From NCBI GenBank assembly GCA_041920275.1, contig JAYRSE010000007.1:20517-84516 (forward strand): 64,000 nt of DNA, given 5' to 3'. The notes below the pieces were generated by a model, which had not been told where the DNA came from, ran no database searches, and saw only the letters and a program-made list of their open reading frames with translations. Of the stretch, positions 9,543 through 50,551 are shown piece by piece (within the stretch, counting starts at the first letter, position 1; every line of letters begins with the position of its first letter). The position numbers were made by a program, and so were the translations under genes. Source of the stretch: Minisyncoccota bacterium. GTDB taxonomy: Bacteria > Patescibacteriota > Minisyncoccia > Phycocordibacterales > UBA12088.

Positions 9543-9567
9543 ATGATTGAAGTCAACCTCCAATCAT
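9543..9567 (+). repeat. REP-like 25-nt hairpin ATGATTGAAGTCAACCTCCAATCAT, copy 1
   Basis: Identical 25-mer also at 47344 (same orientation) and as its reverse complement at 9901 and 10426. The stem ATGATTG/CAATCAT is imperfect. Confidence 0.8.
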
Positions 9568-9704: not shown

Positions 9705-10418
9705 ATGAACCGAGTAACTTGCGCCACCGACGAAACATACCACGTATTCAATCGCGGCGTAGACAAGAGAGAAATCTTTTTAACAGACGAAGAACGCATG
9801 TACTTCATCCATCTGCTCTATGTACTCAACGACGTCCATTCCACCTACAACATTCATCGCCATTTTATACAGCATGCAGAACACAACCTGATCAATGGAT
9901 ATGATTGGAGGTTGACTTCAATCATATCCAAACGAGAAACTTTGGTGGACATACTTGCGTTTGTACTCATGCCAAACCATTTTCATCTCATGTTGACCCA
10001 GCGAAGCGAGAATGGTATCTCAGCATTTATGCACCGGCTTGGCACAGGGTTTACCAACTATTTTAATCAGGCACACGAAAGAAGCGGTGCCCTGTTCCAA
10101 GGAACCTACAAACGGGTGCACGTATCCTCTCCAGAATTTTATAATTACCTACCACACTACATACACTTAAACCCCCTGTCAATCGTGGGCACAAAAGAAA
10201 AAACCGCACCGGAGAACATTCGAGCCCTCCTCTCGTACAGATGGAGCAGTTTCCCAGACTACATGGGCAAGAAAAACTTTCCTTCGGTCATCAACACATC
10301 CGCCATACTGAAGTTACCCGATAATACACACGGGTATCGAGAAAGCATACTCAAATACATTGAACCCTCTCCACTCAACTATGCGCCTGAAAAAACAGCG
10401 CTTATCGACTATGATTGA
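9705..10418 (+). CDS. IS200/IS605-like HuH tyrosine transposase (REP-associated tyrosine transposase, RAYT; COG1943-type)
   Basis: YHVFNRGVDKREIF N-motif. HuH motif LMPNHFHLML. Conserved C-terminal block FQGTYKRVHV. AT-rich compared with its flanks. Bracketed by inverted REP copies. Confidence 0.8.
   Translation: MNRVTCATDETYHVFNRGVDKREIFLTDEERMYFIHLLYVLNDVHSTYNIHRHFIQHAEHNLINGYDWRLTSIISKRETLVDILAFVLMPNHFHLMLTQRSENGISAFMHRLGTGFTNYFNQAHERSGALFQGTYKRVHVSSPEFYNYLPHYIHLNPLSIVGTKEKTAPENIRALLSYRWSSFPDYMGKKNFPSVINTSAILKLPDNTHGYRESILKYIEPSPLNYAPEKTALIDYD
9897..9929 (-). repeat. REP copy 2, inside the RAYT coding sequence and in frame, with an extended 33-nt palindrome GGAT...ATCC
   Basis: Reverse-complement 25-mer at 9901-9925 plus 4-bp flanking complementarity. 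Encodes GYDWRLTSIIS within the RAYT ORF. Confidence 0.75.
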
Positions 10419-11662
10419 ATGGGTGATGATTGGAGGTTGACTTCAATCATGCGAGAAGTGATAAGGTCGCGATAGACATAGGCGGAGGGGCGAATGGTGC
10501 GTACGAGCGTGTCGAAGTCGACCTCCACAAGCCCGAAGCGCTTGTCGAAGCCGTGTGCCCACTCGTAGTTGTCGAGAAGCGACCAGTACATGAAGCCGTG
10601 CACGTCGACACCATGTTCGATCGCCCGCTCGATACCCTGCACCGTTTTTCGTATGTAATCCGCACGAAAGCGGTCATGTGCATCCGCACAGCCGCACTCC
10701 TCCACGATGACCGGTTTTCCATACCGCTTCACCGCCATGAGCGCATCGTAGATCTTTTCGGGGCGCGCGTCCCACCCCATGTCGGTTTTTGGATGCACCT
10801 CATGGTCGTCGAAGTCGGTATAGAAGTAATAGTTCAAACCGAGCGTATCACACTCGCGCACCACCCGCTTCAAAAAGCGGTGGTTGTTGTTCCACATCAT
10901 GAAGCGCGCCTTGAGCTTGCCCCACCACCTGCGCCCGGTGAACACGTGCACCTGAAAGGTGATGCCGACGTCGACCGTTGGCGCCTCGGCCTTAATGGCA
11001 CGGTAGGCGCACACGTGTGCATGGGCGAGCGTGTTTGCGAGGGTGAAAAATTTGATGATGCCGAACCAATCGCGCACGGCGCCGCGCGAAAGTTCCGCAT
11101 CGCTCGGGATACGCGCGAGATCCGTAAGCGGAAACCGATGGAACGGTGGAAAGGTGCCACGCACCCAGCCGTTTATCACCGTACTGTACGGCTCGTTGAG
11201 CGTGGTGAAATACTGTGCGTGGGTACCGAGCTTGGACACCACGTGCCCACAGTACCGCGCGAACACCTCGGGAAAATCCTTTCGTTCGATGCCACCACGT
11301 TGCGAAAGCCAGAGCGGCAACGTCCAGTGCCAGAGCGTCACCACCGGCTCGAGGCCGCGCTCTCGAAGCGCACGGAGGACCTCGCGATAGTGCTCGATCG
11401 CGCTCTCGTTGAACACCCCTTCTTCCGGCTCGATACGTGCCCACTCGATAGAAAAGCGATGCGCGTTGTGCCCCAACGCTTGTGCGATATCGAAGTCTTC
11501 ACGAAAGCGCTCGAAGTGCCCGCACGCCCGCCCGCACACGGGCACCTTGCCTTCGCGTGCCGCCTGCGCCCAATCATTGTTTTCTATCCCACCCTCCACC
11601 TGGAAAGATGCCGTAGCTGCGCCCCAAAGGAATTTGTTTGAAACACCCACACCCTTGTTCAT
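10409..11662 (-). CDS. GH1 beta-glucosidase / 6-phospho-beta-glucosidase family
   Basis: FLWGAATASFQVEGG N-terminal signature. TLNEPY acid/base motif. VIVEECG nucleophile region. Start at MNKGVGVSNKF. The last about 13 aa (MIEVNLQSSPIQS) are REP-derived. Confidence 0.85.
   Translation of the reverse strand: MNKGVGVSNKFLWGAATASFQVEGGIENNDWAQAAREGKVPVCGRACGHFERFREDFDIAQALGHNAHRFSIEWARIEPEEGVFNESAIEHYREVLRALRERGLEPVVTLWHWTLPLWLSQRGGIERKDFPEVFARYCGHVVSKLGTHAQYFTTLNEPYSTVINGWVRGTFPPFHRFPLTDLARIPSDAELSRGAVRDWFGIIKFFTLANTLAHAHVCAYRAIKAEAPTVDVGITFQVHVFTGRRWWGKLKARFMMWNNNHRFLKRVVRECDTLGLNYYFYTDFDDHEVHPKTDMGWDARPEKIYDALMAVKRYGKPVIVEECGCADAHDRFRADYIRKTVQGIERAIEHGVDVHGFMYWSLLDNYEWAHGFDKRFGLVEVDFDTLVRTIRPSAYVYRDLITSRMIEVNLQSSPIQS
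10426..10450 (-). repeat. REP copy 3 (reverse complement), preceded by the half-repeat ATGATTGAA at 10411-10419
   Basis: Exact reverse-complement 25-mer. The RAYT stop codon TGA (10416-10418) lies in the half-repeat. Confidence 0.8.
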
Positions 11663-11792
11663 ACTGATAATAGTATCACAAAGGTGGATCGTCTGATCAG
11701 TACTAGTCGAATACAAAAAAGAGAGACGTCCTGTCTCTCTTTTCACTGTTTTAAACACACATCATCCGTGACGTGTGACTGCCACTCGGATG

Positions 11793-46868: not shown

Positions 46869-47288
46869 ATGGAAACGAACATCATCAACACGAAAGTCAT
46901 AGCGTTCAGCACGGTTGCGGCGCTGTTAGGGGCGGGTTTCGCCATGGCCATGAGCGCCTCGGCGGCCGGCCCGCAGGGCGGTCTTGCGCGCGGCACCTGT
47001 GACCCTGAGCGGCACGAAGCCGTCGAGAAGGCCATGGAGGATGGCGACTATGAGGCATGGAAGGAACTACATGGCGGCCGCGGGCGCATCGCGAGCGTTG
47101 TAAATGAGGATAACTTTGACACCTTCGTCGCGATGCACGAGGCGATGGAAAGCGGTGACACGGAGAAAGCCGCCGAACTGCGCGAGGAACTCGGCCTCAA
47201 CGCCTCAGGTCACCGCGGTGGCGGTCGAGGTGGCATGCACCGCGGCATGGGTGCCGGGGATGGTGTGCAGAACAACTGGGGCAACTAA
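46869..47288 (+). CDS. small secreted protein, Gly-rich C-terminus, hypothetical
   Basis: Hydrophobic N-terminus VIAFSTVAALLGAGFAMAMSASAAG. Confidence 0.45.
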   Translation: METNIINTKVIAFSTVAALLGAGFAMAMSASAAGPQGGLARGTCDPERHEAVEKAMEDGDYEAWKELHGGRGRIASVVNEDNFDTFVAMHEAMESGDTEKAAELREELGLNASGHRGGGRGGMHRGMGAGDGVQNNWGN

Positions 47289-47307
47289 AACTTGTGTGAA
47301 CATCTGA

Positions 47308-47345
47308 AACAGAGGCGGGCGAATCGCCCGCCTCTGTTCGTTCAT
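47308..47345 (+). terminator. hairpin terminator after the 46869-47288 gene
   Basis: AACAGAGGCGGGCG-AATC-GCCCGCCTCTGTT. Perfect 13-bp stem. T-tract weak. Confidence 0.55.
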
Positions 47346-47368
47346 GATTGAAGTCAACCTCCAATCAT
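47344..47368 (+). repeat. solo REP copy 4, followed by partial repeat CCAATCAT (47369-47376)
   Basis: Exact 25-mer, same orientation as copy 1. Confidence 0.8.
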
Positions 47369-47529
47369 CCAATCATGGTGTGTTGGGGACTCGCAAAAGC
47401 AAGGAGGAGCCGCGCGGCGGTTCCGTTCGCTCTCGCCACACCACGAGGTGCAAAACGGTAGCGGAGCGACACAGCATCCATGGGTCACTCCGTTCAGTGT
47501 CGACACTGCGCACAATGAAATACTAGTAT

Positions 47530-50443: not shown

Positions 50444-50551
50444 CTATTTCTTCTTTGCAGCCTTCTTTGCTGCGGGCTTCTTTGCCGCCGTCTTCTTTGC
50501 TGCGGGCTTCTTGGCTGCAACCTTCTTTACCGCCTTTTTCTTTGCTGGCAT
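50444..50551 (-). CDS. 35-aa Lys/Ala-rich histone H1-like basic micro-protein
   Basis: MPAKKKAVKKVAAKKPAAKKTAAKKPAAKKAAKKK with KKPAAKK repeats. Confidence 0.45.
   Translation of the reverse strand: MPAKKKAVKKVAAKKPAAKKTAAKKPAAKKAAKKK

What the first reader, a model, noticed from the sequence alone, without database searches (positions are those of the whole stretch)
9897..9929. A REP copy inserted in frame inside the RAYT coding sequence
The reverse-complement 25-mer sits at 9901-9925 inside the transposase ORF. Here it is flanked by GGAT/ATCC, making a 33-nt perfect-stem palindrome (a multiple of 3). It is translated as GYDWRLTSIIS between the N-motif and the HuH motif. In-frame palindromic-element insertions into ORFs are known for Rickettsia RPEs. 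A RAYT carrying its own REP in its coding region is unusual and may reflect self-targeting or a tolerated loop insertion.
Basis: seen in the sequence. Interest (0 to 1): 0.55.

Follow-up and report, generated by a model that had tools for sequence, protein, structure and literature searches.

The report
Transposase gene carries its own hairpin
A domesticated transposase-like gene of a tiny uncultured bacterium carries, in frame inside its own coding sequence, the same DNA hairpin that flanks it. About 40% of 123-127 sampled related genes from similar uncultured bacteria do the same, each with its own genome's version of the hairpin, so this is an old, co-evolving feature and not a one-off accident.

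Summary
The 25-mer ATGATTGGAGGTTGACTTCAATCAT occurs four times in 64 kb (0 expected). Three copies sit at one RAYT-like Y1/HuH gene (9705-10418): 5' flank, in-frame internal, and 3' end. The internal copy extends to a 35-nt hairpin (9896-9930) and encodes residues 65-75, in a predicted disordered loop before the HuH strand.

The "fresh in-frame insertion" reading is only partly right. Syntenic orthologues (88% and 74% aa identity) carry the hairpin at the same codons. Against the 74% orthologue it is the only 25/25-identical stretch of the gene. All four changes in the 88% orthologue keep or improve pairing, three at the cost of amino-acid changes.

Among 127 non-redundant Patescibacteria relatives, 46 share at least 16 nt between this linker and their own flanks, against 6/2540 for other genes' flanks. 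The hairpin differs between genomes, but its position (about 21 aa before MPNH) and codon phase are conserved.

I read it as a conserved multi-hairpin locus evolving in concert, probably through the enzyme's own cleavage and strand transfer. A cis-regulatory role is inferred, not shown. I found no published description. It is a new variant of a known kind.

The parts
9705..10418 (+). RAYT-like Y1 HuH enzyme gene (237 aa). N-motif YHVFNRG is at 9738-9758, HuH (H92, H94) at 9978-9986, and the catalytic Tyr152 in YIHLNP at 10158-10160.
   Evidence: ORF. Pfam Y1_Tnp E 1.2e-6. H92, H94 and Y152 are invariant in 112 homologues. The Foldseek best hit is 4er8_A, E. coli TnpAREP bound to a REP hairpin, E 7e-7. 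Third codon positions diverge far more than the gene average between orthologues, which I read as purifying selection on the protein.
9896..9930 (+). Internal in-frame hairpin. The REP 25-mer is 9901-9925, with a stem extension TGGAT/ATCCA. It has 15 pairs (one G.T) and a 5-nt loop, and encodes residues 65-75 (GYDWRLTSIIS).
   Evidence: It lies in a disordered loop in the model. It is conserved in orthologues with pair-preserving changes.
9543..9567 (-). 5' flanking REP copy, inverted relative to the internal and 3' copies. It lies 138 nt upstream of the ATG, in the divergent intergenic region shared with an EamA-like gene.
   Evidence: It is identical in the orthologous locus L081.
10426..10450 (+). 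3' flanking REP copy, in the same orientation as the internal copy. It starts 8 nt after the RAYT stop codon and lies inside the 3' end of the convergent GH1 ORF.
   Evidence: It is present in L081 and L083, with only the first base changed.
47344..47368 (-). Solo dispersed copy of the same 25-mer, between a small ORF and secA. It is the only copy in the window away from the RAYT gene.
10411..10418 (+). 8-nt duplicate of a REP arm (ATGATTGA), 7 nt before the 3' REP. It overlaps the RAYT stop codon.
   Evidence: A second such duplicate (47369-47376, - strand) abuts the solo copy.

Best explanation
The 25-mer is the cognate hairpin (REP) of the Y1/HuH enzyme encoded at 9705-10418. The gene is a vertically inherited 'REPtron', meaning a transposase-like gene bracketed by inverted REPs. 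This one carries a third copy in frame, in the codons for a disordered surface loop just before the HuH beta-strand.

Shown:
- The internal copy is old and fixed in position.
- It recurs in about 40% of 123-127 related genes from Patescibacteria (CPR) genome and metagenome contigs.
- Its sequence is specific to each genome and matches that genome's flanking copies.
- It is kept as a palindrome at nucleotide level, even at the cost of amino-acid changes.
- The catalytic block of the gene never contains such a copy.

Inferred:
- The copies at the locus evolve in concert because the enzyme acts on every cognate hairpin near its gene. It would do so on single-stranded DNA, cutting at both feet of a hairpin and rejoining. 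That swaps whole hairpin cassettes without changing register or reading phase.
- The protein tolerates whatever 7-12 residues the hairpin encodes.
- The internal hairpin most likely serves as a cis site through which the enzyme, or the hairpin itself in the mRNA, limits expression of its own gene.
- For the REP lineage it is a copy that cannot be lost without destroying its enzyme.
For: Copies and chance: 4 exact copies in the window, 0 expected.

Age and vertical inheritance:
- Gene order EamA, RAYT, GH1 is the same in loci encoding proteins 88% and 74% identical.
- The internal hairpin is at the same codons in all of them.

Nucleotide-level constraint:
- Window against L083: 74% nt identity, 54% at third positions. 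The only 25/25-identical stretch of the gene, and its longest identical run (26 nt), is the REP.
- Window against L081: 4 differences in the 33-mer. A3:T31 became G:C, G12.T22 became G:C, and the G15/A19 mismatch became T:A. Three of the four are non-synonymous. L081's flanking REPs keep the window sequence.

Family scale:
- Of 127 non-redundant genes, 46 share an exact match of at least 16 nt between the N-motif-to-HuH linker and their own flanks, against 6/2540 for other genes' flanks.
- Of 123 genes, 105 have matching 5' and 3' flanks, 50 have a linker copy, 12 have a copy after the catalytic Tyr, and 0 have one in the catalytic block.
- Perfect stems of at least 9 bp: linker 24/127, HuH block 0/127.

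Conserved position and phase:
- The hairpin centre lies 20.7 +/- 3.2 aa before MPNH.
- The central loop base is never at codon position 3 (0/45), although 34-37 of the 45 hairpins would be stop-free there.

Concerted evolution:
- L044 against L048/L060/L146, L059 against L141/L145, and L108 against L116 each show different hairpins at the same offset, each matching its own flanks. L031 and L133 have REP doublets both internally and in the flanks.
- In 59 of 73 related pairs the internal copy is closer to its own flank than to the orthologue's internal copy.
- L020 carries two paralogous genes on one contig, each with its own hairpin at the 5' and internal positions. One also has 3'-end and post-Tyr copies.

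Loop location: residues 61-73 have pLDDT below 50.

Enzymology precedent: E. coli TnpAREP cleaves on both sides of the REP palindrome and performs strand transfer in vitro (PMC3333891).
Against: - The internal copy is missing or decayed in about half of the family (L028, L090, L092, L005), so it is dispensable.
- Its orientation relative to the flanking copies is not consistent.
- Internal stems are on average no longer than flanking ones (9.9 against 10.5 pairs).
- There is no direct evidence that this enzyme binds or cuts the hairpin, or that the hairpin affects expression.
- L081's internal copy differs from its own flanks at 2 positions, so homogenisation is not complete.
- Copy number outside the locus is low. 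The window has one extra copy in 64 kb, and most 10-20 kb loci have none. The element is therefore not a high-copy REP in the classical sense.
- The pairs counted are not phylogenetically independent, and they were pre-selected for an internal copy close to a flank.
Confidence: 0.55

Rival explanations
1. Neutral passenger. A REP once landed in a loop that tolerates any peptide. It persists only because whatever process homogenises REPs (enzyme-driven exchange or short-patch conversion) keeps refreshing it. It has no effect on the gene or the cell.
For: It sits in a disordered loop. It is absent or decayed in about half of the relatives, and a second permissive site exists after the catalytic Tyr. 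Its orientation is variable. Di Nocera et al. regard intragenic REPs in other genes as probably neutral (PMC3733652).
Against: In the window/L081 lineage the stem was extended beyond the REP, and one extension pair covaries. All four changes improve or keep pairing, while L081's flanking copies stay unchanged. That is not what refreshment from flanking copies predicts. L048, L060 and L146 share an internal variant that differs from their own flanks.
Confidence: 0.28
2. Structure-only RNA element. The hairpins at the 5' end, inside and at the 3' end act in the mRNA (stability, processing, translation pausing), independently of the encoded enzyme.
For: The coding strand forms the better hairpin: G.T/G.U on the + strand against A/C on the - strand. 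The RNA fold z-score is -4.4. REPs have been proposed to affect mRNA decay and termination (abstracts listed).
Against: A structural role alone does not require the three or four copies of one locus to share sequence, nor two paralogues on one contig to each keep a private hairpin (L020). No T-tract follows the internal hairpin. There is no Rfam match.
Confidence: 0.1
3. One reading: a recent, one-off in-frame self-insertion of a mobile REP into its own transposase gene.
For: The copy is identical to the other three copies in the window. Its length in frame is a multiple of 3.
Against: The same hairpin is at the same codons in syntenic orthologues at 88% and 74% aa identity. Homologues at 41-54% identity have the same protein length and a hairpin at the homologous place.
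Confidence: 0.03
4. Reverse direction. The coding segment is the original, and the flanking and dispersed hairpins were seeded from it. The gene holds the master copy.
For: Most copies of each hairpin lie at the gene itself, and few are dispersed. The internal position is conserved.
Against: The peptide is not conserved and only the palindrome is. Flanking pairs are much more widespread than the internal copy (105 against 50 of 123). Internal copies decay while flanks persist.
Confidence: 0.04

Closest known systems
REPtron: a RAYT/TnpAREP gene flanked by inverted REPs (Nunvar 2010, PMC2817692; Ton-Hoang 2012, PMC3333891; Di Nocera 2013, PMC3733652)
   Same: Y1 HuH fold with HuH and a catalytic Tyr. 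A single syntenic gene. Cognate palindromes immediately 5' and 3' in inverted orientation. The 3' copy lies 8 nt past the stop codon. REP and enzyme co-diversify.
   Different: A third copy (in some relatives a fourth) lies inside the ORF, at a conserved loop position. The hairpins carry no GTAG or CGTC tag and are low-copy. The protein has a distinct N-motif (YHxxNRG), a long linker and an ~80-aa C-terminal extension. It scores below the NCBIfam RAYT cutoff.
In-frame palindromic elements in genes (Rickettsia RPEs; intragenic GTAG/CGTC REPs, PMC3733652)
   Same: A palindromic repeat is translated in frame within a functional protein, presumably in a tolerant region.
   Different: Those elements insert in assorted unrelated genes and are not reported in the gene of their own enzyme. 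Here the host gene is the cognate enzyme, the site is conserved across a phylum-level radiation, and the sequence is kept in step with the flanking copies.
IS200/IS605 insertion sequences (TnpA with subterminal LE/RE hairpins)
   Same: The same enzyme superfamily and the same logic of hairpin recognition on single-stranded DNA. Hairpins lie at both ends of the gene.
   Different: The IS elements are multi-copy and mobile, with their end hairpins on one strand. Here the gene is fixed in synteny, the flanking copies are inverted, and one lies inside the ORF.

Membership tests
Y1 HuH transposase superfamily (Pfam PF01797, Y1_Tnp) | Profile match above the curated cutoff | tested here: met
   29 bits against a cutoff of 23, E 1.2e-6, residues 47-153.
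Y1 HuH transposase superfamily (Pfam PF01797, Y1_Tnp) | HuH motif and catalytic tyrosine present and conserved | tested here: met
   H92, H94 and Y152 are invariant in 112 homologues. The fold matches 4er8, 2a6m and 2xm3.
RAYT / TnpAREP (REP-associated tyrosine transposase) | NCBIfam equivalog NF047646 at its curated cutoff | tested here: not met
   43.9 bits against a cutoff of 80. Only the HuH-to-Tyr core (residues 76-158) aligns. A profile of 112 homologues finds no PDB sequence at E <= 0.01.
RAYT / TnpAREP (REP-associated tyrosine transposase) | [quoted passage not shown] | tested here: met
   9543-9567 (-) and 10426-10450 (+). In relatives, 105 of 123 genes have matching 5' and 3' flanks.
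RAYT / TnpAREP (REP-associated tyrosine transposase) | Single-copy, vertically inherited gene | tested here: met
   One copy in 64 kb. The gene order EamA, RAYT, GH1 is kept in loci encoding proteins of 88% and 74% identity. Some relatives have duplicates or paralogues (L003, L020).
RAYT / TnpAREP (REP-associated tyrosine transposase) | Cognate REP highly over-represented in the genome (tens to hundreds of copies) | tested here: inconclusive
   Only one copy away from the gene in 64 kb. Most 10-20 kb loci of relatives show none. No whole genome was available.
RAYT / TnpAREP (REP-associated tyrosine transposase) | Conserved GTAG (or CGTC) tetranucleotide at the foot of the REP | tested here: not met
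   The four copies share nothing beyond the 25-mer, and the 25-mer contains no GTAG or CGTC.
RAYT / TnpAREP (REP-associated tyrosine transposase) | Enzyme binds and cleaves its REP on single-stranded DNA | not testable with these tools
   This needs purified protein and oligonucleotides.
Rickettsia palindromic elements (RPE) | Member of the RPE sequence families, inserted in many unrelated genes | tested here: inconclusive
   The element is 25 nt and, in the window, lies in coding sequence only in the RAYT gene and the 3' tail of GH1. RPE-like behaviour is a resemblance, not membership. No RPE sequences were compared.
IS200/IS605 insertion sequence | Multi-copy mobile unit with variable genomic location | tested here: not met
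   Fixed synteny in three lineages. One copy in the window.

The most novel reading that the evidence does not exclude
The internal hairpin is a working part of a self-referential system. The enzyme recognises, cuts and rejoins the cognate hairpin inside its own ORF. This both throttles its own expression and keeps a master copy of the REP that cannot be lost. The concerted change of three or four hairpins per locus across Patescibacteria would then be a natural record of RAYT-catalysed hairpin-cassette exchange in vivo. To my knowledge REP mobilisation by a RAYT has not yet been demonstrated in cells.
Probability: 0.3. Interest if true: 0.8.

Novelty: new variant of a known kind. Interest (0 to 1): 0.62.

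Why it matters
How RAYT enzymes act on REPs in living cells, and why single-copy RAYT genes are retained, are open questions. The retention problem is stated in PMC5581495. This family may help in three ways.

- **A specificity dataset.** Dozens of natural enzyme-hairpin pairs have the hairpin written inside the enzyme's own gene. They may help relate hairpin-recognition specificity to protein sequence.
- **Evidence of activity in vivo.** All hairpins of a locus are replaced together, with register and phase preserved. This is indirect evidence for in vivo exchange.
- **A testable regulatory hypothesis.** The hairpin can be recoded without changing the peptide.

It also warns annotators that peptide motifs such as GSTS or EVEP in these proteins reflect DNA palindromes, not protein function.

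Tried and rejected
- **Consistent orientation.** I looked for a fixed orientation of the internal copy relative to the 5' and 3' copies, which would point to a strand-specific mechanism. There is none. For perfect stems, orientation is often decided by a single central base (L008 against L011).
- **Longer internal stems.** I tested whether internal hairpins are systematically longer than flanking ones, which would show extra selection on structure. They are not (9.9 against 10.5 pairs, Wilcoxon p = 0.25). The extended stem is specific to the window/L081 lineage.
- **Shared flanking nucleotides.** I looked for nucleotides beside the four window copies that could mark cleavage sites. None are shared beyond the 25-mer.
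- **Known RNA families and signals.** The Rfam scan of the locus gave nothing relevant. The promoter/terminator scan was at background level. Only the 5' copy scores as terminator-like, on the minus strand.
- **Solved structures by sequence.** A profile search of PDB sequences gave no hit. Only fold comparison links the protein to 4er8.
- **Literature.** Six searches were run, five of them for prior descriptions, and five papers were read. None mentions a REP inside a RAYT ORF. Absence from this library is not proof of absence.
- **Technical failures.** One Python run timed out and one had a parity bug. Both were redone.

Full report
**What is in the window.** The 25-mer ATGATTGGAGGTTGACTTCAATCAT occurs four times without a mismatch: 9543-9567 (-), 9901-9925 (+), 10426-10450 (+) and 47344-47368 (-). 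None is expected by chance, and no further copies appear at up to 3 mismatches. It is the only genuine interspersed repeat in the 64 kb. The four copies share nothing beyond the 25 nt.

Three of the four copies belong to one gene, the ORF 9705-10418 (237 aa). That ORF matches Pfam Y1_Tnp (29 bits, cutoff 23). It has the N-terminal YHVFNRG motif, HuH (H92, H94) and the catalytic Tyr152 in YIHLNP. All three catalytic residues are invariant in 112 homologues.

The 5' copy is inverted relative to the 3' copy, which is the classical arrangement around a RAYT gene (PMC2817692). With its flanks it forms a 35-nt hairpin (9896-9930) of 15 pairs, one of them G.T, and a 5-nt loop. As DNA it folds at -12.3 kcal/mol, against about -6 for the other copies. 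As RNA the z-score is -4.4.

**It is not a recent insertion.** The protein has 2252 relatives at E <= 1e-5, and the 120 listed are nearly all between 220 and 265 aa. The two closest (88% and 74% identical) are encoded in the same gene order: EamA-like gene, RAYT, then a convergent GH1 gene. The gene is therefore single-copy and vertically inherited. Both orthologues carry the hairpin at the same codons.

- Against the 74% orthologue (L083) the gene is 74% identical in DNA and 54% at third positions. The only 25/25-identical stretch, and the longest identical run in the gene (26 nt), is the REP.
- Against the 88% orthologue (L081) the 33-mer differs at four positions. One A:T pair became G:C through changes on both sides. 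The G.T became G:C. The loop-closing G/A mismatch became T:A.
- Three of those four changes alter the amino acid (R to S, S to P, S to P). L081's flanking REPs keep the window's sequence.
- Here the nucleotides are being conserved as a palindrome, and the peptide is not.

**The family-wide pattern.** I fetched 80 loci from species-representative genomes and 80 from metagenomes. Most named records are Patescibacteria/CPR assemblies, 33-48% identical to the window protein.

- In 127 non-redundant genes, the longest exact match between the N-motif-to-HuH linker and the gene's own flanks is at least 16 nt in 46 genes. The control, linker against other genes' flanks, gives 6 of 2540.
- Of 123 genes, 105 have matching 5' and 3' flanks, 50 also have a copy in the linker, and 12 have one in a second site after the catalytic Tyr helix. 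None has one in the catalytic block.
- Perfect stems of at least 9 bp occur in 24/127 linkers and 0/127 HuH blocks.
- The hairpins differ from genome to genome. Matches of one genome's core in unrelated loci are 0 in most cases.
- They do share an apical core of the type GGT-NNN-ACC. That core is why the peptides look alike (GSTS, QGSTL, EVEP).
- The hairpin centre lies 20.7 +/- 3.2 aa before MPNH, whatever the linker length.
- The central loop base is at codon position 1 or 2 and never at position 3 (0/45), although 34-37 of the 45 hairpins would be stop-free there.
- Loci that my motif filter missed mostly have intact ORFs with variant motifs and show the same pattern.

**Concerted evolution.** In related lineages the hairpin at the homologous codons differs, and each version matches its own genome's flanks. 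Examples are L044 against L048/L060/L146, L059 against L141/L145, and L108 against L116 (same offset, unrelated hairpins).

- In L031 and L133 the internal element is a REP doublet, like their flanks.
- L020 has two paralogous genes on one contig. Each has a private hairpin in its 5' flank and linker, and one also has 3'-end and post-Tyr copies.
- In 59 of 73 related pairs the internal copy is nearer to its own flank than to the orthologue's internal copy. Eleven are equal and three go the other way.
- Those pairs are not independent, and they were selected for having an internal copy close to a flank. The count illustrates the pattern and is not a formal test.

**Where it sits in the protein.** The AlphaFold model (mean pLDDT 82.6) places residues 61-80 in a coil between a helix (50-60) and the strand (81-88) that leads into HuH. 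pLDDT is below 50 for residues 61-73. The best structural match is E. coli TnpAREP bound to a REP hairpin (4er8, E 7e-7), followed by the IS608 and ISDra2 transposases.

**How it most likely works.**

- Shown: a conserved locus with several hairpins, whose internal member is maintained as a palindrome and changes together with the flanking members.
- Inferred: the enzyme acts on all cognate hairpins at its own locus. E. coli TnpAREP cuts on both sides of the REP palindrome and transfers strands in vitro (PMC3333891). Exchange of whole hairpin cassettes would explain the joint replacement of both arms, the preserved register and phase, and the absence of flanking homology.
- Inferred more weakly: the internal hairpin acts in cis to limit expression of the enzyme, and it gives the REP lineage a copy that cannot be lost.

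**Evidence against a required role.** About half the family lacks the internal copy, and some copies are decaying while the flanks persist (L092, L090, L005, L028). Orientation is inconsistent. Internal stems are not generally longer than flanking ones. The neutral-passenger rival therefore remains strong.

**Comparison with what is known.** The locus works like a REPtron and belongs to the Y1 HuH superfamily. It fails two criteria of canonical RAYTs. It scores 43.9 bits against a cutoff of 80 for NCBIfam NF047646, and its hairpins have no GTAG or CGTC tag. High genomic copy number could not be shown.

In-frame REPs and RPEs in other genes, and REPs that overlap the ends of RAYT genes, have been described (PMC3733652). 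I found no description of a conserved cognate REP inside a RAYT ORF in the papers searched. I rate it a new variant of a known kind.

Noticed in passing
window 10409-10450: The 3' REP lies inside the last codons of the convergent GH1 ORF (10409..11758, - strand), which ends ...SRMIEVNLQSSPIQS*. That ORF overlaps the RAYT ORF by 10 nt. The called gene coordinates in the orthologous loci L081 and L083 show the same overlap. This REP is therefore translated too, as the C-terminal tail of a glycosidase.
   Followed up: partly
window 10411-10418 (+) and 47369-47376 (-): Two of the four REPs are preceded by a direct duplicate of the 8-nt arm ATGATTGR, at 7 nt and 0 nt. The window holds only 11 such 8-mers, 8 of them inside the REPs (4.65 expected). 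This may be a footprint of how copies are made, or a remnant of an older copy.
   Followed up: partly
L005, L020 (gene at 1764), L087, L090, L092, L098, L101; about +420 to +441 nt from the N-motif: A second in-frame site for the cognate hairpin lies just after the catalytic-Tyr helix (YIHLNP...). In protein it reads YRGSTSID or similar. It is found in 12 of 123 genes, often where the first site is decayed. It is not present in the window's gene.
   Followed up: partly
L031 3294-3331; L133 linker (offset about +161 nt from the N-motif): In these two relatives the internal element is a doublet of inverted hairpins (REPIN-like, 17-25 pairs) translated in frame. This matches the doublets in their own flanks.
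   Followed up: partly
L020 (genes at 1764 and 7279); L003 (genes at 1365 and 2290): L020 carries two paralogous RAYT-like genes, each with a different private hairpin in its 5' flank and linker. One also has 3'-end and post-Tyr copies. L003 carries two identical tandem copies of the gene with hairpins between them.
   Followed up: partly
hairpins of L004, L007-L009, L012, L019, L020, L023, L041, L044, L048, L076, L087-L104 and the window: Across genomes the apical part of the hairpins keeps a common form, (R)(R)GGT-NNN-ACC(Y)(Y) or AAGT-NNN-ACTT, while the outer stem varies. This suggests one ancient hairpin family that has co-diversified with the enzyme.
   Followed up: no
window 50448-50549: A 15-nt-period tandem repeat of about 6-7 units (TTCTTTGCNGCNGNC).
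   Followed up: no
window 47306-47334: A G+C-rich palindrome (ACAGAGGCGGGCGAATCGCCCGCCTCTGT on the + strand) lies 9 nt from the solo REP copy, in the gap between the small ORF at 46869-47288 and secA.
   Followed up: no
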